Assembly (NCBI GenBank): GCA_000004985.1
Contig: GG738851.1
Reading direction: 5' to 3' (one strand)
DNA length: 64,000 bases
Origin: Naegleria gruberi
Lineage: Eukaryota
Shown here: in pieces, positions 13,545 to 64,000 of the stretch
Numbering within the stretch: position 1 is the first letter of the stretch
Layout of the letters: each line of letters opens with the position of its first letter
The notes under the pieces: model-generated
What the model saw: only the letters and a program-made list of their open reading frames with translations
Told to the model about the DNA's origin: nothing
Database searches by the model: none
Position numbers and translations under genes: made by a program

Positions 13545-13617
13545 GCCCGTCTAGCTCAGTCGGTAGAGCGCAAGGCTCTTAACCTTGTGGTCGTGGGTTC
13601 GACCCCCACGGTGGGCG
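13545..13617 (+). tRNA. tRNA-Lys (anticodon CTT)
   Basis: 73-nt cloverleaf: acceptor GCCCGTC/GGTGGGC (two G-U wobbles), D-arm GCTCAGTCGGTAGAGC, anticodon stem CAAGG/CCTTG with loop CTCTTAA, T-arm GTGGGTTCGACCCCCAC. Confidence 0.9.
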
Positions 13618-17654: not shown

Positions 17655-17728
17655 GCCTTCCTAGCTCAGTTGGCAGTAGCGCTGTCCTAGTAAGACAGAG
17701 GTCTTGGGTTCGATTCCCAAGGGAGGCA
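17655..17728 (+). tRNA. tRNA-Thr (anticodon AGT)
   Basis: 74-nt cloverleaf: acceptor GCCTTCC/GGGAGGC (one G-U), anticodon stem CTGTC/GACAG with loop CTAGTAA, T-arm TTGGGTTCGATTCCCAA. One D-stem mismatch. Confidence 0.75.
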
Positions 17729-31591: not shown

Positions 31592-31712
31592 AAAGACTAC
31601 AGCACCACAGGTTCCCAAGTTGTCTCCAACCTCAGCACTGATGTGGCTCGACGATGCTTAACTTCTCAAATCGGACGGGATGAGGTGCATGAATCGTGAT
31701 ATGGCCGTAGCC
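31592..31712 (-). rRNA. 5S ribosomal RNA (copy 1)
   Basis: Reverse complement reads GGCTACGGCCATATCACGATTCATGCACCTCATCCCGTCCGATTTGAGAAGTTAAGCATCGTCGAGCC…GGTGCTGTAGTCTTTT, a 5S consensus with a Pol III T-run terminator. Confidence 0.9.
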
Positions 31713-33991: not shown

Positions 33992-34112
33992 AAAGACTAC
34001 AGCACCACAGGTTCCCAAGTTGTCTCCAACCTCAGTACTGATGTGGCTCGACGATGCTTAACTTCTCAAATCGGACGGGATGAGGTGCATGAATCGTGAT
34101 ATGGCCGTAGCC
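33992..34112 (-). rRNA. 5S ribosomal RNA (copy 2)
   Basis: Near-identical to copy 1 (one substitution), with the same conserved upstream block and T-run. Confidence 0.9.
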
Positions 34113-36736: not shown

Positions 36737-37848
36737 ATGAAATACGTCAATTTGGGTGAAAGTGGTTTAAAAGTTTCTCAACTTTGCTTGGGTTGCATGA
36801 GTTTTGGATCTTCCAAGTGGATTCCTTGGGTTTTGGAAGAAGAGGAATCATTGAGAATATTGAAGAAGGCATGGGATTTGGGCATCAACTTTTTCGACAC
36901 TGCCAATATTTACAGCAATGGAGAAAGTGAAAGAATTTTAGGCAAGTTCATTAAGGAATTCAACATTTCAAGAGAGGAAATTGTGGTTGCTACCAAAGTT
37001 TGTGGACCATTGGATCATTCTGGTGAACAAAAACTCATTATGAATAGTAATCAAGGTAAACCAAATACTATGGGTCTTTCCAGAAAGCACATTATGCATG
37101 CAGTTGAGGATTCATTGCAAAGATTGGGTCTTGATTGTAAGTTTTACTTTCTTCTTGTGATTTTAAATGAAAAATTTAAATAGACATTGATTTGTACATT
37201 ATCCATCGTTGGGATGAACAAACACCAATTGAAGAAACTATGGAAGCTCTCCATGATTTGGTTAAATCTGGAAAGGTCAGATACATTGGTGCCTCTACTA
37301 TGTTTGCTTGGCAATTTTCCAAAGCTCAACATTATGCTGAGAAGAAGGGATTGACTAAATTCATTTCCATGCAAAATCTGTACAATCTCATCTATAGAGA
37401 AGAGGAGAGAGAAATGAATCCATTGTGTGTTGATCAAGGTGTTTCACTCACACCTTGGGGACCTCTTTCTAATGGAATGTTAGCTCGTGCTCATGAATTT
37501 GTCAATGCTGAGGAGAAGGCAATTGAAACTACTGAAAATAATTCCAAGAGACAAAATACTGATATTGTTCAAACCATATTTAAGGGCAATTTGACTGAAG
37601 GTGATAAGGAAACTTTGAGAAAAGTTTCTGAAATTGCCAAGAAGAGAAACGTTTCTCCAGCTCAAATTGCACTTGCTTGGTTACTTTCCAAACCTGGAGT
37701 TGTAAGTCCAGTAATTGGTGCAACAAAGGCCATTAATGTTGAGCTCAATGTTCAAGCACTGGAAATTGAATTGACTGAAGAGGAGAAGAAGATTTTAGAA
37801 GGAGCCTACTCTGCAAAGGAAATTCAAGGAATGTTCAAATTAAATTAA
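36737..37848 (+). CDS. Aldo-keto reductase (Kv-beta/YajO-like), 2 exons (36737-37136, 37184-37848)
   Basis: AKR N-terminus MKYVNLGESGLKVSQLCLGCMSFG. GTAAGT donor and AATAG acceptor (47-nt intron) join …LQRLGLD|YIDLYIIHRWD…. Confidence 0.85.
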
Positions 37849-38236: not shown

Positions 38237-38530
38237 TTACATCTTTTTCGATTTGGTAATCTTCTTAGTTGTGGTGTTTGATTGTTTAGCTCTCTTTTCA
38301 ATTGAATTTTTCGAAGATCTTTTAACTGAAATTTGTTTACCATTTAAATTTGCATGATGATAATCAATATTATTACGATGTCTTGTTCCACTTATAATAT
38401 TAGATGTATCAATATCAAATAATGGTAATCTTTTAGATAAATCAATTGGTTTAGATCTTGTCCATTCTGTTTTTGTTGGAATTCTATCTTCGGAAGATGA
38501 AGTATTTGATGAAGTATTTCTAGCTGGCAT
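38237..38530 (-). CDS. Small orphan Ser/Asn-rich basic protein, family member A (MPARNTSSNTSS…)
   Basis: 97-aa ORF. Paralogs at 63546-63761 and 63964-64000 share the GTR(H/R)RN(N/L)IDY motif and the promoter. Confidence 0.45.
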   Translation of the reverse strand: MPARNTSSNTSSSEDRIPTKTEWTRSKPIDLSKRLPLFDIDTSNIISGTRHRNNIDYHHANLNGKQISVKRSSKNSIEKRAKQSNTTTKKITKSKKM

Positions 38531-38833
38531 TTTGCTCTTAGTTTTTGTTATTTAGTTATTTTGTTTTGTTGTGGAAATTTCATCATCCGAGCTAACAGTT
38601 ATCTATTTATTTCCATGATGATTTCCACTAATTTTGTGATTCCGATTTTTAGTGGATCTTCCACTCATCACAAGAATTTTTCTATTAATATTTTGATGAA
38701 AGGAAATTTAATGAAAATCAACAAACAAAAGAAAATAACAAGCAAAACTTCTAAATCAATCACAGAATTCTTTAGAAATGAGAAACAAACAATTCAAAAT
38801 GTGGTAATCTCCATAAAACTCAAAATTTTGTAA
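38480..38833. repeat. Inverted segmental duplication, copy 1 (promoter + 5' ends of a divergent gene pair); partner at 63523-64000
   Basis: Reverse complement of 38480-38720 aligns to 63790-64000, and of 38721-38833 to 63523-63640, at about 85-90% identity by eye. About 150 bp present at 63641-63789 is absent here. Confidence 0.7.
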
Positions 38834-39531
38834 ACCTAAGCAATCATTGTAAATAAAACCAAAATGTAAATATTCAGTAAAGTACACAGTTGAATTGTTT
38901 TGACCTATTTTCTTTATTTTCTTCTGAACTGCTGATTCAATTCGCATCCTGCATAAATTTCAAAGTAATTATATCAATTCTGTGTTTGCCCTCCTTCTCA
39001 ATTTTTTCCTGTGAGGGATCATCTGGTATGATTTCTAGCTCTGTTAAATAATAGAACAACTCCTTTTTCTCAAAAACAACAAACCTTTTCGGATGTTTCA
39101 CTTTGTGTCCATTAATTAATCCAACATACTCATAAAATGTAATAAAGAAATTGGTGATTAGTTCTGTAAGAAAAAAAGGGTGTGTCAGATCTGTGGTGGC
39201 AGAACCGTCAGAAATCGGCCCACAGACTTGCTCACAGCCCCGATCATTTGAAGTAGTGGTATTTCAAGTATGCCTGTTGGCTCTCACCTATGCTACACCT
39301 TCAACGAACACGGTTTGGTTGCAGTGTAATCCCTCAATTGGTTCTGCCAATGACAATGAATTGTCTGCAAACTCTAGATGGTTTGAAAATGTCTGATATG
39401 GTTGTGGTTGAGAGATAATTGATATTTAAAACTCCATCTCAGGATTGACATCTTCACATCCATTTTCTCATTTCTAAAATTCCTTTGCCCACTTGTTTAA
39501 GTCAAGTAAAGACAAAATACCAAAAAGATAA

Positions 39532-39652
39532 AAAGACTACAGCACCACAGGTTCCCAAGTTGTCTCCAACCTCAGTACTGATGTGGCTCGACGATGCTTA
39601 ACTTCTCAAATCGGACGGGATGAGGTGCATTCATCGTGATATGGCCGTAGCC
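39532..39652 (-). rRNA. 5S ribosomal RNA (copy 3)
   Basis: Same as copies 1 and 2 except for a local TTC to GAA change (…CACGATGAATGCACC…). Conserved upstream block and T-run terminator. Confidence 0.85.
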
Positions 39653-39813: not shown

Positions 39814-41292
39814 TTAATTTCTGGAATAGTCAAAATCGTCAAAGTTTTGATTTTCTTCCTTATCAATAACTTCGGCAAATGAATCAACAGCACGTTCAGA
39901 TGTGAATTCTTCATCAAAGTATTTGATATCATCTCCATCTCTGAGTTGTGGTCTGAATGGAGGTTCCAATTGTCGTTGATATAATTGTTCCCAATCAATA
40001 TTTGAGAAGAATGGATGTGATTTGATTTCTTGAGCATCAGTTGGACCACCTCCCAAACGTTTGAATTCTTCTCTTTCCAAGAGACCTCTCAGTAAGGATT
40101 GTGCATCAGGTGGAATGAATTGTGGGAATTTGAGTGGAGCCTTCAAAATTAATTCGTACATTTCATTGATGTTTTCAGAGTAGAATGGTGGCAAACCAAC
40201 CATCATTTCGTATAATAAGATACCTAAACTCCACCAATCGACTGCCTTAGCGTGACCTTGTCCCTTGAGGATTTCTGGAGCCAAATATTCAGGAGTACTA
40301 AACATTTATAATTAGAAAAAATTTAAAAGATTGATTACATACCCACAGAATGTATAAGTTGGAGTAGCATTAGAAATGGATGTCTTGGCCAAACCAAAAT
40401 CTGTCAAGACAACATAACCATCTGAATCCAAAACAACATTTTCTGGTTTCAAATCTCTGTAAATAATATCATTCTTGTGCAAGTGTTCAATGGCCAAAAC
40501 AATTTGAGCAGCATAGAACTTGGCACGTTCAACGTCAAATTTGGTTTCTTCTTTCAAGTGGAAGAACAATTCACCACCTGGCAAGAATTGAAGAACTAGA
40601 TAGAGTTTTTCATCTGTTTGGAATGCATAGTACAATTTGACAATGAATGGATGGTTAATTTCTTGGAGAATTTGCTTTTCAGCCTTTCTATATATGGTGT
40701 AAAAGAGGTGTAAGGTCAATTAGAAAATTGTAAATATTTGGAAATATTAAAATACGTACGTGTGAGAAACCATGTTTTCTTTAACAATCATATCCTTACG
40801 CAAAACCTTCATGGCGAAAATTTCTGTAGTATTCTTTCTTCTAACTTTCATAACTTTTCCGAAACTGCCTCTACCAACGACGGCAATCAATTCAAAATCA
40901 TCCAAAGTGACCTTCTTTGCTTCAGCACTATTTCCACTTGAAACCAACAATGTACTACTCGAAGTATCATTTTTCATTTCCATCTTGGTTTGTTCTAAAC
41001 CCTTTTTATCATTCTTTGGCTTATAGTCAATAGCTCTTTGTAATTCATCCATCCACTTTTTATAATCAAGTTCAGATTCACAAATCAATTCATAGACACG
41101 TGAAAGATTTGGACCACTCAATTTCAATCCGAGTGACTTGTTTCCATCCTTTTCAACTTTGGCATTTGTCAGGACAATGACACCTGTTGGACGCTTATCT
41201 GTATTCTTTTTGTAATAGTACAAGTGTTTACCTCTCAATTCAAACCATCTACGACGGTGAGCAAGAGTATTAAATCCACCTCTCTTTCTCAT
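39814..41292 (-). CDS. PH-domain AGC kinase (PKB/Akt-like), 3 exons (41292-40760, 40687-40343, 40297-39814)
   Basis: N-terminal PH domain (…[17 protein letters not shown]…). GTACGT donor and ATATAG acceptor (72 nt) join …MVSHT|[20 protein letters not shown] donor and TTTAG acceptor (45 nt) join …TFCG|[12 protein letters not shown]-terminal tail FDEEFT. Confidence 0.85.
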
Positions 41293-59236: not shown

Positions 59237-60291
59237 TGGTGAATAGTAAGAAGGTTGCTCAATTCTTACAAATCGATCTTACTGAAACCAAGGTTTACAA
59301 GTTTGCTGATAGTGAAATTGGTGTTCAAATTATGGAAAATGTCAGAGGTGTAAGTATTGAAGATGTATGAGGATTGTATTAATTGTTATTATTATTGGAA
59401 TGGATTAGAGTGGTATGTATTGACTAAAATTCAATGAATTATTTATCGGAATGTAAAGATGTTTATGTTATTCAATCAACATGTACTCCTGTCAATGATA
59501 ACTTTATGGAATTGTGTCTTATTGTCGATGCTTTGAAGAGAGCCAGTTGTAATAGAATTACTGCTGTTGTTCCATATTACGGATATGCTAGACAAGACAG
59601 AAAGACCAAGCCAAGAGTCCCAATTTCTGCTGCCCTCGTCTCTAGATTGTTAGAATCATCAGGTGTTGATCGTGTCTTGTCTGTTGACTTGCATTGTGGT
59701 CAAATTCAAGGTTTCTTCAACATTCCAGTTGACAATCTCCATGCCAAACCAGTTTTGGTCGATCAATTCTATCAAAGAATCGTTTTAGGTGAATCATTGA
59801 AGACTGTTTCCGATTATCAAGGACTTGTTGTCGTTTCACCAGATGCTGGTGGTGCAGAACGTGCTGATAACTTTAGAACTGCATTGAATGAACAAGATCC
59901 ATCTCTCCAAGCTTCTATGGCTGTTATGAATAAGAAGAGAGTTGAAGCCAATAAGGTTTCCACAATGGAATTGGTCGGTAATGTTGAAGGTAAACACTGT
60001 GTCATTGTTGACGACATGATTGACACTGCTGGTACTTTGGCTATGTGTGCTCAAATTTTGAAGGACAATGGTGCTAAGAGAGTCTTTGCTTGTGCCACCC
60101 ATGGTTTATTCAATGGAGCTGGTGTCAAGAAGATGGAAGAAAGTGTCATTGAAAAGGTTATTGTCACAAACACTGTCCCACTCCCAGCTGAAAAGCAACA
60201 CGAAAAGATTATTCAAGTCTGTGTCAGCAAATTGGTTGGTGAAGCTATTAGACGTGTTCACAATGAAGAATCTGTCTCAAGCTTGTTCTAA
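59237..60291 (+). CDS. PRPS: Ribose-phosphate pyrophosphokinase (PRPP synthetase), 2 exons (59237-59348, 59459-60291)
   Basis: Exon 1 MVNSKKVAQF…GVQIMENVR ends at GTGTAAGT. Acceptor …GTAAAG at 59458 continues DVYVIQSTC… PRPP-binding loop VIVDDMIDTAGT. Confidence 0.8.
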
Positions 60292-62985: not shown

Positions 62986-63107
62986 GGCTACGGCCATATC
63001 ACGATTCATGCACCTCATCCCGTCCGATTTGAGCAGAAAAATGATGCCCAATCCAACAAGGTCATCTTTGAATTGACTTGTTGGAGATTCTTCGTTGTTC
63101 TATTATT
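62986..63107 (+). pseudogene. 5S rRNA variant or pseudogene (intact promoter and 5' 48 nt, diverged 3' half)
   Basis: GGCTACGGCCATATCACGATTCATGCACCTCATCCCGTCCGATTTGAG matches the other copies, then diverges (CAGAAAAATGATGCCC…). Upstream block AAATCGTTTTATATTTCGCAAATTAAG is conserved. Confidence 0.55.
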
Positions 63108-63545
63108 TAACAGAGCGAGAAATCATACCAGATGAATCCTCACAGGAAAAAATTGAGAAGGAGGGCAACAACCACTTTGATTATTGACCAAATTCTGGCT
63201 ACTCATCCTCTTGAGTGAAAGGAGGAGAGTTTCCAGATTCACATTTCAGTCTGCATGATCTCTGAAATGTCCTTCAAGGTAAGTATAAAGAAAGAAAAGA
63301 GTGTAAATTCAAACAAATCTTAAAAACTTTTCAAGATGTATGATTTTTTGAAACCTGAATTATGGTCATTGTTTGTTTTTTTATGATTTGAATTCTTTGA
63401 AATAGTTGAACATGAAGCAAACACAGAATTGATATAATTACTTTGAAATTTATGTAGGATAATTATTTTACATTATTGAATATTTACATTTTGGTTTTAT
63501 TTACAATGATTGCCTAGGTTTTCAAAATTTTGAGTTTTATGGAGA

Positions 63546-63761
63546 TTACCACTTTTTGAATAGTTTGTTTCTCATTTCTAAAGTGTTATGTGATTGAGAT
63601 TTAGAAGTTTTACTTGTTTCATTTCCAACAGAATTCAATGTTTTGTAATCAATTAAATTTCTTCTTCTTGTTCCACCAATAATATTATCCAGAGAAATTT
63701 CGGAATTAAATTGTGAAGTATTATTGGAGGAATTATACATATTTCTTCTTGTTGAGACCAT
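63546..63761 (-). CDS. Small orphan Ser/Asn-rich basic protein, family member B (MVSTRRNMYNSSNNTS…GGTRRRNLIDY…)
   Basis: 71-aa ORF, divergently oriented to the partial gene at 63964. Shares NII(S/G)GTR(H/R)RN(N/L)IDY with the 38237-38530 protein. Confidence 0.4.
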   Translation of the reverse strand: MVSTRRNMYNSSNNTSQFNSEISLDNIIGGTRRRNLIDYKTLNSVGNETSKTSKSQSHNTLEMRNKLFKKW

Positions 63762-63963
63762 TTTCTAATTGTTGTTTTGTTATTTTCTTTTGTTGTTGAT
63801 TTTCATTAAATTTCCTTTCATCAAAATATTGATAGAAAAATTCAACTTCTTGTGATGAGTGGAAAATCCACCAAAAATCGGAATCACAAAATTAGTGGAA
63901 ATCATCATGGAAATAAATAGATCAACTATCCACAACAAAACAAAATAACTAAATAAGAGCAAA

Positions 63964-64000
63964 ATGCCAGCTAGAAATACTTCATCAAATACTTCATCTT
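63964..64000 (+). CDS. 5' end of another family-A member (MPARNTSSNTSS…), truncated by window end
   Basis: ATGCCAGCTAGAAATACTTCATCAAATACTTCATC is near-identical to the start of the 38530 minus-strand gene. Confidence 0.4.
   Translation, partial: MPARNTSSNTSS

What the first reader, a model, noticed from the sequence alone, without database searches (positions are those of the whole stretch)
38237..38833. Inverted segmental duplication of a head-to-head orphan gene pair with a conserved bidirectional promoter; one copy carries a roughly 150-bp deletion
Reverse complement of 38480-38720 aligns to 63790-64000. This covers the 5' end of an MPARNTSSNTSS… gene plus about 190 bp of promoter. Reverse complement of 38721-38833 aligns to 63523-63640. 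In the 63.5-64.0 kb locus the intervening 63641-63789 encodes the start and N-terminal half of a second paralog (63546-63761, MVSTRRNMYNSSNNTS…GGTRRRNLIDY…), divergently transcribed from the shared promoter. In the 38.5 kb locus that segment is missing. Only the 3' remnant of the B-type gene survives there, fortuitously fused into the promoter-spanning ORF 38561-38833. The products are tiny (about 70-100 aa), Ser/Asn/Thr/Lys-rich, and share a short GTR(H/R)RN(N/L)IDY motif. I recognise no homology to known families.
Basis: seen in the sequence. Interest (0 to 1): 0.6.

Follow-up and report, generated by a model that had tools for sequence, protein, structure and literature searches.

The report
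Duplicated histone-binding mini-gene pair, Naegleria
The inverted duplication is real, but the two tiny "orphan" genes belong to a family carrying the CHZ histone-binding motif in the amoeba Naegleria gruberi, and the duplicated block also holds a U1 spliceosomal RNA gene, with one copy of the block decaying through small deletions, which is an ordinary evolutionary outcome.

Summary
Window 38494-39060 is a colinear inverted copy of 63094-64000: 3.7% substitutions and several indels. The window is Naegleria gruberi.

The "orphan" reading is wrong.
- Gene A (38237-38530, minus strand, 97 aa) matches Pfam CHZ above the curated cutoff.
- Gene B (63546-63761, minus strand, 71 aa) falls just below it.
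- A and B are paralogs, and both are under purifying selection (dN/dS 0.16-0.31).
- They belong to a family of small, basic, disordered CHZ-motif proteins. Every named member is heterolobosean.

The head-to-head A/B pair and its roughly 200-bp promoter are conserved in three environmental contigs. The promoter has a TTCCAC-N-GTGGA core between two TATA-like boxes.

The duplicated block also carries a U1 snRNA gene (63116-63286, minus strand). A 5S rRNA gene lies beside each copy.

The 38.5-kb copy lost two pieces, each deletion flanked by microhomology:
- the 5' half of B (158 bp, junction TTGTT);
- the 5' two-thirds of U1 with its upstream region (248 bp, junction GCAA).

An environmental relative shows the reciprocal case, with A truncated and B intact.

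The likely function is binding of H2A(.Z)-H2B dimers. That is inferred, not shown. Overall this is a new member or variant of a known kind, of modest interest.

The parts
38237..38530 (-). Gene A1: an intact 97-aa, basic (pI 10.7) CHZ-motif mini-protein. The CHZ motif covers residues 39-60, which is nt 38351-38416.
   Evidence: ORF listed. Pfam CHZ 28.5 bits, above the 23.3 cutoff. dN/dS is 0.16-0.31 against environmental orthologs. Paralogs of 93-94% identity are annotated in N. gruberi. pI.
38531..38736 (.). The 38.5-kb copy of the shared A/B promoter. It keeps the palindromic core TTCCACTAA-N17-TTAGTGGAT (38623-38657) and both TATA-like boxes.
   Evidence: Aligns to 63777-63964. The core is invariant across 6 sequences. 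Regex hits occur only at the two loci.
38737..38807 (+). Gene B pseudogene remnant: the last ~23 codons only, with a 2-bp frameshift. The start codon and CHZ motif were removed by a 158-bp deletion whose junction has TTGTT microhomology.
38808..38985 (.). Copy of the B 3' flank and the far-upstream U1 region. It contains an extra segment of about 61 bp (38885-38945) that is absent at 63 kb.
38986..39038 (+). U1 snRNA 3' stub: the Sm-site region and the terminal hairpin only. U1 nucleotides 1-118 and about 130 bp upstream were lost in a 248-bp deletion whose junction has GCAA microhomology. Homology between the copies continues to 39060.
   Evidence: 96% identity to 63168-63094. U1 model alignment. 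Junction.
39534..39652 (-). Intact 5S rRNA gene, convergent with the B remnant.
   Evidence: Rfam RF00001, 105.4 bits against a cutoff of 38.
62986..63089 (+). Degenerate 5S rRNA-like sequence, convergent with U1 and B. Its 5' half and about 43 bp upstream are 88-91% identical to the three intact 5S copies.
   Evidence: Rfam 22 bits, below the cutoff of 38. BLASTN.
63116..63286 (-). U1 snRNA gene, full length and divergent in sequence.
   Evidence: Rfam U1 40.7 bits, E 7.7e-7 for the whole window, below the cutoff of 69.5. The 5' end is exactly AUACUUACCU. The MFE fold is a 4-way junction, then a single-stranded AAUUUUUU, then a 3' hairpin, with z = -2.6.
63169..63416 (.). 248-bp segment present only in the 63-kb copy. 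It holds U1 nucleotides 1-118 and the U1 upstream region.
63546..63761 (-). Gene B: an intact 71-aa, basic (pI 10.4) CHZ-motif mini-protein, with the motif at residues 21-40.
   Evidence: Translated. Pfam CHZ 21.4 bits, E 1.7e-4. An ortholog of 67% identity, P0009, has dN/dS 0.24-0.29.
63619..63776 (.). 158-bp segment present only in the 63-kb copy. It holds B codons 1-48 and 15 bp of the B leader.
63762..63964 (.). 203-bp shared divergent promoter. Its features are the palindromic core at 63866-63900, a B-side TATA-like box near 63832-63845, an A-side AAATAAATAG near 63911-63920, and mirror-symmetric leaders at 63772-63821 and 63907-63956.
   Evidence: 2 of 2000 shuffles reach the observed symmetry score.
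63965..64000 (+). Gene A2: only the first 12 codons (MPARNTSSNTSS) are visible before the window ends.

Best explanation
**What it is.** The window is Naegleria gruberi nuclear DNA. The unit is a small-gene module. Two paralogous mini-genes, A and B, are transcribed divergently from a mirror-symmetric promoter of about 200 bp. A U1 snRNA gene lies downstream of B, and a 5S rRNA gene is convergent next to it.

**The proteins.** A (97 aa) and B (71 aa) are basic, Ser/Thr/Asn/Lys-rich proteins predicted to be disordered. Their only confident element is a CHZ motif. In yeast Chz1, plant Chz1 and human HIRIP3 this is the peptide that lies on the H2A(.Z)-H2B dimer. The most likely function is therefore binding of H2A-H2B-type histone dimers as an escort, an import adaptor or a chromatin-associated factor. 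This step is inferred.

[quoted passage not shown] They are therefore unlikely to be classical H2A.Z-specific chaperones.

**History, shown from sequence.**
1. An old inverted duplication created the A/B pair, including its leaders.
2. More recently the whole A-B-U1 module was copied in inverted orientation about 25 kb away.
3. The 38.5-kb copy then lost the 5' half of B and the 5' two-thirds of U1 in two microhomology-flanked deletions. It kept an intact A gene and the promoter core.

This is ordinary degeneration of a duplicate to a single-gene copy.
For: **Organism.** Identity is 277/277 to N. gruberi XP_002681126.

**Duplication.**. The flanking genes of the two copies are unrelated: an aldo-keto reductase and a PH-kinase at one, a Cdc14-like phosphatase at the other.

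**CHZ motif.**
- Pfam hits.
- 17 of 33 family members hit CHZ.
- The profile's three best PDB matches are Chz1 chains 2jss_B, 6ae8_C and 8qz0_K, aligned over IDTSNII-SG-R-R-IDY.
- The role of the CHZ motif in H2A/H2A.Z-H2B binding is described in PMC6544321 and PMC10854748.

**Real coding genes.** dN/dS is 0.16-0.31. L004 B against L005 B shows 7 synonymous and 0 nonsynonymous changes.

**Family distribution.** The profile finds 27 hits among 1.84 billion representatives. All named ones are Heterolobosea.

**Disorder.** pLDDT is 61.7 and pTM 0.18, with the best confidence at residues 41-60. pI is 10.4-10.7.

**Conserved head-to-head arrangement and promoter core.** Seen in L002, L003 and L004.

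**Mirror symmetry of the promoter.**

**The deletions are derived.** Full-length B is present in the relatives L004 and L005, and L002 and L003 carry its 5' end.

**Reciprocal or parallel losses.** L001 lacks the 5' part of B, with a different junction. L005 lacks the A start through a 92-bp deletion.
Against: - There is no transcript or protein evidence for any member. Histone binding is inferred from a motif of about 22 residues only.
- B is 1.9 bits below the Pfam cutoff.
- The PDB profile E-values are weak (0.05-0.36).
- The proteins are strongly basic, unlike acidic histone chaperones.
- The rest of A2 and the outer boundary of the repeat lie beyond the window end.
- Whether the degenerate 5S at 62986-63089 was part of the same duplication cannot be decided. 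It is about equally similar to all three intact 5S copies.
- U1 scores below Rfam's gathering threshold.
Confidence: 0.65

Rival explanations
1. The resemblance to CHZ is fortuitous. A and B are lineage-restricted small basic nuclear or nucleolar proteins, for example nucleic-acid binders, with no histone-dimer function. The conserved I-NI-GTR-R-I-Y block serves another partner.
For: - The proteins are basic (pI 10.4-10.7).
- They lack acidic tracts and the DEF/Y motif (sequence; PMC6544321).
- The family profile retrieves no fungal Chz1 or HIRIP3 at E<1e-3 among 1.84 billion representatives.
- phmmer of A1 alone finds no Chz1 in the PDB.
- Additional family-specific blocks, TEWxRSxPxDxSKR and KRxSxNTxEKR, lie outside the CHZ motif.
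Against: - A1 exceeds the curated Pfam cutoff at E 1e-6.
- Seventeen of 33 members independently hit CHZ and no other family recurs.
- The three best PDB profile hits are all Chz1, aligned on the same residues.
Confidence: 0.25
2. The repeated block is a mobile or selfish element, and the small ORFs are its cargo or are spurious. This would explain the multiple dispersed copies in N. gruberi.
For: - There are at least four distinct A-type sequences in N. gruberi: A1, A2, P0005 and P0007, on different scaffolds.
- The copies sit in unrelated gene neighbourhoods.
- They are associated with dispersed 5S rRNA genes.
Against: - No transposase or integrase domain is present. The only Pfam hits are CHZ.
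- No terminal repeats or target-site duplications appear at the visible inner boundary.
- The ORFs are under purifying selection.
- The A-B-5S arrangement is syntenic in a divergent relative.
Confidence: 0.07
3. The inverted copy is an assembly artefact, such as a mis-joined haplotype or a collapsed repeat, rather than a true duplication on one chromosome.
For: The window ends inside the repeat at 64000, so one arm is incomplete. A1 and B are absent from the protein collection as exact sequences.
Against: - The arms differ by 3.7% substitutions and at least 6 indels, including two large ones.
- Each arm is embedded in unique, unrelated coding sequence.
- Environmental contigs independently show both the intact and the deleted forms.
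Confidence: 0.03

Closest known systems
Yeast Chz1 (H2A.Z-H2B chaperone; PDB 2JSS, 6AE8, 8QZ0)
   Same: It shares the CHZ motif almost residue for residue: Chz1 has LAEIDTSNIItSGRRTRgKVIDYKKT and A1 has LFDIDTSNII-SGTRHR-NNIDYHHA. Both are small and intrinsically disordered (PMC3395605 title).
   Different: A and B are strongly basic (pI >10). They have no acidic N- or C-terminal tracts and no DEF/Y motif. At 71-97 aa they are shorter than Chz1's 153 aa. There is no detectable similarity outside the motif, and the family-specific flanking blocks differ. H2A.Z specificity is therefore not expected (PMC6544321).
HIRIP3 (human) and AtChz1/OsChz1 (plants): CHZ-motif proteins that bind both H2A-H2B and H2A.Z-H2B
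   Same: They have a CHZ motif without the fungal H2A.Z-specificity elements. Generic H2A-H2B dimer binding is the expected activity (PMC10854748, PMC6544321).
   Different: Those proteins are long (HIRIP3 is 556 aa), with Glu-rich and poly-Ser regions, and need an extended region of about 120 aa for full affinity. The Naegleria proteins are barely larger than the motif and its immediate flanks.
Longer heterolobosean members of the same family (N. gruberi XP_002672511 and XP_002683340, Willaertia KAL9642586, Acrasis KAL0483377)
   Same: They share the extended signature of an SKR block, the CHZ-like block and the KRxSxNTxExR block.
   Different: They are 290-370 aa, with an acidic stretch and an extra C-terminal domain of about 130 aa. 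A and B look like stand-alone N-terminal modules of this architecture.
Divergently transcribed histone gene pairs (such as H2A-H2B) with shared bidirectional promoters
   Same: Two small, chromatin-related paralog or partner genes lie head to head, about 200 bp apart. They share a symmetric promoter with two TATA-like boxes around a central element, and the pair is duplicated as a unit.
   Different: The products are not histones. Co-regulation has not been shown here. This comparison rests on general knowledge only.

Membership tests
Pfam PF09649 (CHZ histone chaperone domain) | Score at or above the curated gathering cutoff of 23.3 bits | tested here: met
   A1 scores 28.5 bits, E 1e-6. P0005, P0006 and P0007 carry a precomputed PF09649.
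Pfam PF09649 (CHZ), gene B | Score at or above the curated gathering cutoff of 23.3 bits | tested here: inconclusive
   B scores 21.4 bits, E 1.7e-4, just below the cutoff. It is homologous to A over the motif.
Fungal Chz1-type H2A.Z-specific chaperone | C-terminal DEF/Y motif (a run of D/E followed by F or Y) and acidic flanking regions | tested here: not met
   There is no D/E run in A1 or B. K+R against D+E is 21 to 8 in A1 and 12 to 5 in B, and pI is 10.7 and 10.4. The requirement is stated in PMC6544321.
Fungal Chz1-type H2A.Z-specific chaperone | Preferential binding of H2A.Z-H2B and delivery to SWR1 | not testable with these tools
   This needs biochemistry.
HIRIP3 / plant Chz1-type CHZ proteins | Long protein with Glu-rich and Ser-rich regions and a C-terminal extended CHZ region of about 120 aa | tested here: not met
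   A1 is 97 aa and B is 71 aa. Pfam finds no other domain.
U1 spliceosomal RNA (Rfam RF00003) | Score at or above the gathering cutoff of 69.5 bits | tested here: not met
   40.7 bits, full-length model 1-166, E 7.7e-7 for the window.
U1 spliceosomal RNA (Rfam RF00003) | 5' AUACUUACCU, a four-way junction of stem-loops I-III, a single-stranded Sm site, and a 3' hairpin | tested here: met
   The 5' decamer is exact. The loop of stem-loop I reads GAUCAUGCAG. The MFE fold gives a free 5' end, a 4-way junction, an unpaired CUCAAUUUUUUCC and a terminal hairpin, with z = -2.6.
5S rRNA (Rfam RF00001) | Score at or above the gathering cutoff of 38 bits | tested here: met
   39534-39652 scores 105.4 bits. 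The copy at 62986-63089 scores only 22 bits and is called degenerate.
Bidirectional promoter of a divergent gene pair | Two divergent genes less than 1 kb apart, with the intergenic sequence conserved across species | tested here: met
   The two ATGs are 203 bp apart. The core and both TATA-like boxes are invariant in 6 sequences, including relatives with dS 0.6-0.9.
Bidirectional promoter of a divergent gene pair | Divergent transcripts initiating in the shared region | not testable with these tools
   No expression data are available.
Transposable element | Transposase or reverse transcriptase, terminal repeats, target-site duplication | tested here: not met
   No such Pfam domain was found. 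There are no terminal repeats at the inner boundary 39060/63094. The outer boundary is not visible.

The most novel reading that the evidence does not exclude
Heterolobosean amoebae may have a previously undescribed class of stand-alone, strongly basic mini CHZ-motif proteins of 70-130 aa. These would be encoded as divergent paralog pairs under a palindromic promoter and physically linked to U1 snRNA and 5S rRNA genes. Because they lack the acidic shielding regions of chaperones, they would act not as chaperones but as a new kind of H2A-H2B-docking chromatin or import factor, with the CHZ peptide binding the dimer and the basic tails binding DNA, RNA or importin. The A/B pair might function as a heteromeric or dosage-balanced duo, and the repeated one-sided deletions (38.5-kb locus, L001, L005) would tune that balance.
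Probability: 0.15. Interest if true: 0.55.

Novelty: new member of a known kind. Interest (0 to 1): 0.33.

Why it matters
1. It removes a false "orphan gene" label. Two unannotated N. gruberi genes, A1 and B (neither exact sequence is in the 15-billion-protein collection), are CHZ-motif proteins.
2. It defines a heterolobosean family of minimal CHZ-motif proteins. Such proteins could serve as natural minimal models of how the CHZ peptide recognises H2A-H2B dimers.
3. It locates a divergent U1 snRNA gene in N. gruberi that scores below Rfam's threshold. A 2008 survey singled out N. gruberi U1 for an unfiltered search (PMC2396436).
4. It is a clean small-scale example of how duplicated gene modules decay through microhomology-flanked deletions while the shared promoter core survives.

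None of this overturns current understanding.

Tried and rejected
- **Sequence beyond 64000 and the other N. gruberi paralog loci.** The look-up of encoding contigs with a window ORF, P0003, P0005 and P0007 returned nothing on record. The rest of A2 and the outer repeat boundary therefore remain unseen.
- **JGI metagenome scan** with family peptide patterns gave 180 pattern matches but no true relative.
- **phmmer of A1 alone against the PDB** gave only a chance hit. The profile was needed.
- **AlphaFold2 of A1** gave a low-confidence, essentially disordered model. No fold search was run, since it would be meaningless.
- **Intron reading rejected.** I first took the 'gtaagtat' at 63279 and the 248-bp indel for an intron. 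The indel lacks GT..AG ends on either strand, and the motif is the complement of the U1 5' end.
- **Flanking-exon reading rejected.** I first took the 96%-identical stretch 38986-39060 (ORF '...FYYLTELEIIPDDPSQEKIEKEG') for an exon of a flanking PH-domain gene. It is the 3' end of U1.
- **The unique stretch 39061-39533.** Rfam at a permissive threshold found nothing, and the folding z-scores are unremarkable.
- **Spurious ORFs.** The promoter-spanning ORFs 38561-38833 and 63780-63962 have no credible Pfam hits and are treated as spurious.
- **Literature.** I found no paper describing these Naegleria proteins or a Naegleria U1. The held library is incomplete, so this is not proof of novelty.

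Full report
**1. Source and observation**

The window is gene-dense, 34% GC eukaryotic DNA. One ORF (59434-60291) is 277/277 identical to Naegleria gruberi XP_002681126, so the window is N. gruberi.

BLASTN of 37.5-39.5 kb against the window and a global alignment confirm a colinear inverted duplication:

| 38.5-kb copy | 63-kb copy | Identity |
|---|---|---|
| 38494-38741 | 64000-63777 | 84% with gaps counted |
| 38737-38884 | 63618-63469 | 92% |
| 38946-38989 | 63460-63417 | 98% |
| 38986-39060 | 63168-63094 | 96% |

Counting substitutions only, the copies differ at 18 of 485 aligned positions, or 3.7%. They also differ by several indels.

Flanking genes are unrelated. An aldo-keto reductase and a PH-domain AGC kinase flank the 38.5-kb copy. 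A Cdc14-like phosphatase lies next to the 63-kb copy. Only a small module was copied, about 25 kb away and inverted.

**2. The genes are not orphans**

Gene A1 (38237-38530, minus strand, 97 aa) matches Pfam PF09649 "Histone chaperone domain CHZ" at 28.5 bits, E 1e-6, above the curated cutoff of 23.3. Gene B (63546-63761, minus strand, 71 aa) scores 21.4 bits, E 1.7e-4.

A and B are paralogs, 46% identical over 46 residues centred on the motif.

A profile of the family finds yeast Chz1 chains (2jss_B, 6ae8_C, 8qz0_K) as the three best PDB matches. The E-values are weak (0.05-0.36). The alignment is LFDIDTSNII-SGTRHR-NNIDY against LAEIDTSNIItSGRRTRgKVIDY.

**3. They are real coding genes in a lineage-restricted family**

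Close relatives:
- Annotated N. gruberi "predicted proteins" P0005 and P0007, at 93-94% identity. With A1 and A2 this makes at least four distinct A-type sequences.
- Environmental metagenome proteins P0004, P0006, P0008 and P0009.

Nei-Gojobori dN/dS is 0.16-0.31 for A and 0.24-0.29 for B. Two environmental B genes differ by 7 synonymous and 0 nonsynonymous changes.

An HMM of the family, searched against 1.84 billion representatives, returns 27 hits at E<1e-3.
- Most are basic proteins of 70-130 aa. They share an SKR block, the CHZ-like block I-x3-NI-x2-GTR-x-R-x2-(I/N)-x-Y, and a KRxSxNTxExR block.
- One hit (P0012) is a repetitive bacterial false positive.
- Every named hit is heterolobosean: N. 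fowleri XP_044563785, two Willaertia magna proteins, one Acrasis kona protein, and two longer N. gruberi paralogs.

Seventeen of 33 members hit CHZ individually, and no other Pfam family recurs.

A1 and B are strongly basic (pI 10.7 and 10.4). AlphaFold2 predicts disorder (pLDDT 61.7, pTM 0.18), with the highest confidence over residues 41-60, which is the motif.

**4. The head-to-head arrangement and promoter are conserved**

Environmental contigs L002, L003 and L004 carry A and B head to head, as at 63.5-64.0 kb.

Across six sequences, some with dS of 0.6-0.9 to the window genes, the intergenic region keeps three features:
- an invariant core TTTCCAC-N(~20)-GTGGAT (63866-63900; 38623-38657);
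- a TATA-like TCTAT(T/C)AATATTT on the B side;
- a CTATTTAT(T) on the A side.

In the window the two leaders are mirror images: 63772-63821 against 63907-63956, 50 nt at 72% complementarity. The centre is at 63864, which is the midpoint between the two start codons. Only 2 of 2000 half-wise dinucleotide shuffles reach this score.

Together with the A/B protein homology, this indicates that the pair itself arose by an older inverted duplication that included the leader. That is an inference.

**5.

Rfam finds a full-length U1 snRNA match at 63116-63286 on the minus strand. It scores 40.7 bits, with E 7.7e-7 for the whole window, below the gathering score of 69.5.

The U1 hallmarks are present:
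- The 5' end is exactly AUACUUACCU.
- The MFE fold gives a free 5' end, a four-way junction with three stem-loops, an unpaired AAUUUUUU Sm-like site and a terminal hairpin, with z = -2.6.
- The 'gtaagtat' at 63279 is simply the complement of the U1 5' end.

The second segment missing from the 38.5-kb copy, 63169-63416 (248 bp), is U1 nucleotides 1-118 plus about 130 bp upstream. Only a 53-nt 3' stub survives, at 38986-39038.

Intact 5S rRNA genes lie at 39534-39652, 33994-34112 and 31594-31712. A degenerate 5S-like sequence lies at 62986-63089, 26 bp from the U1 3' end.

In L004 a 5S gene lies 146 bp downstream of B, convergent with it as in the window. The A/B-5S linkage is therefore conserved. 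I cannot show that the degenerate 5S at 63 kb belongs to the same duplication event.

**6. The decay pattern**

Full-length B is present in the relatives L004 and L005, and L002 and L003 carry its 5' end. U1 is an ancient gene. The 38.5-kb copy therefore carries derived deletions.
- The B deletion junction has 5-bp TTGTT microhomology.
- The U1 deletion junction has 4-bp GCAA microhomology.
- The B remnant also has a 2-bp frameshift.

Contig L001 has an A gene 94% identical to A1 and also lacks the 5' part of B. Its junction differs, a TTTCAT microhomology, and it does not carry the 2-bp deletion.

L005 shows the reciprocal case. A 92-bp deletion removes A's start codon and first 15 codons, while B and the promoter core stay intact.

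Duplicated A/B modules thus repeatedly decay to single-gene copies that keep the promoter core.

**7. Mechanism**

Shown:
- sequence homology to the CHZ motif;
- purifying selection;
- conserved divergent arrangement;
- the duplication and the deletions.

Known from the literature:
- The CHZ motif is the core contact of Chz1 and HIRIP3 with H2A(.Z)-H2B. It lies on H2B alphaC and reaches H2A alpha2.
- Deleting it abolishes HIRIP3 binding (PMC10854748).
- H2A.Z preference in fungi requires flanking elements and a DEF/Y motif (PMC6544321).

Inferred:
- A and B bind H2A-H2B-type dimers.
- They lack acidic tracts and DEF/Y and are strongly basic. They are therefore unlikely to be classical acidic chaperones or H2A.Z-specific.
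- They may act as escort, import or chromatin-docking factors.
- The symmetric promoter probably co-expresses the pair.

I put about 0.9 on the structural and evolutionary account and about 0.5 on histone-dimer binding.

**8. Rivals**

- The CHZ resemblance may be functionally irrelevant (0.25).
- The module may be a mobile element (0.07). There is no transposase and there are no visible termini. The ORFs are under purifying selection, and the arrangement is syntenic in relatives.
- It may be an assembly artefact (0.03). The arms have diverged, the flanks are unique, and environmental contigs independently confirm both the intact and the deleted forms.

**9. Novelty and verdict**

The duplication followed by degeneration is ordinary. 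The proteins are new, unannotated members, arguably a minimal basic variant, of the known CHZ-motif kind. Annotated paralogs already carry PF09649 in precomputed data.

The U1 candidate is a useful by-product. A 2008 survey listed N. gruberi U1 among the cases that needed an unfiltered covariance search, with a 55.74-bit threshold, and appears not to have recovered it (PMC2396436). I could not check later work.

Interest is 0.33.

Noticed in passing
window 63116-63286 (-): A divergent full-length U1 snRNA gene. It scores below Rfam's gathering threshold (40.7 against 69.5 bits). It has an exact AUACUUACCU 5' end, a four-way junction, an Sm-like site and a terminal hairpin. A 2008 survey treated N. 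gruberi U1 as a hard case.
   Followed up: partly
window 31594-31712, 33994-34112, 39534-39652 (all -); 62986-63089 (+): Three intact, dispersed 5S rRNA genes share about 45 bp of conserved upstream sequence, and there is one degenerate copy. One 5S gene is convergent with the B gene or remnant in the window and in environmental contig L004 (852-912).
   Followed up: partly
window 39150-39350, within the unique stretch 39061-39533: A GC-rich island (47-50% GC against 25-33% around it) lies between the U1 stub and the 5S gene. On the minus strand it ends in a T7 run (the A-run 39171-39177 on the plus strand), like a Pol III terminator. It has no counterpart at the 63-kb copy and no Rfam hit, and its folding z-scores are unremarkable. 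It could be an unclassified small RNA gene.
   Followed up: partly
L005 1-330 against L004 100-520: In an environmental Naegleria relative, one copy of the module (L005) has a 92-bp deletion that removes the A start codon, 15 codons and part of the leader. B is identical at the protein level to L004's B. This is the reciprocal of the 38.5-kb window locus.
   Followed up: yes
L001 1-120: An environmental contig with an A gene 94% identical to A1 also lacks the 5' part of B. Its junction differs (TTTCAT microhomology) and it lacks the 2-bp frameshift. This is either an independent deletion or a secondary one.
   Followed up: partly
window 63772-63821 / 63907-63956: The 5' leaders of B and A are mirror-image homologs, centred exactly between the two start codons (2 of 2000 shuffles reach the score). 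This suggests the A/B pair arose by an inverted duplication that included the promoter.
   Followed up: yes
window 36737-37183 and 37192-37848 (+); 39814-41292 (-): The aldo-keto reductase and the PH-domain AGC kinase genes are each split into adjacent ORFs in different frames. This is presumably caused by short introns. It was not examined.
   Followed up: no
window 13545-13617 (+), 17655-17728 (+): tRNA-Lys(CTT) and tRNA-Thr(AGT) genes.
   Followed up: no
P0037 / P0038 (N. gruberi XP_002672511, XP_002683340) and P0024, P0027: Longer heterolobosean family members combine the CHZ-like block with an acidic stretch and an uncharacterised C-terminal domain of about 130 aa with no Pfam match. These may be the lineage's true Chz1/HIRIP3-like chaperones.
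   Followed up: no
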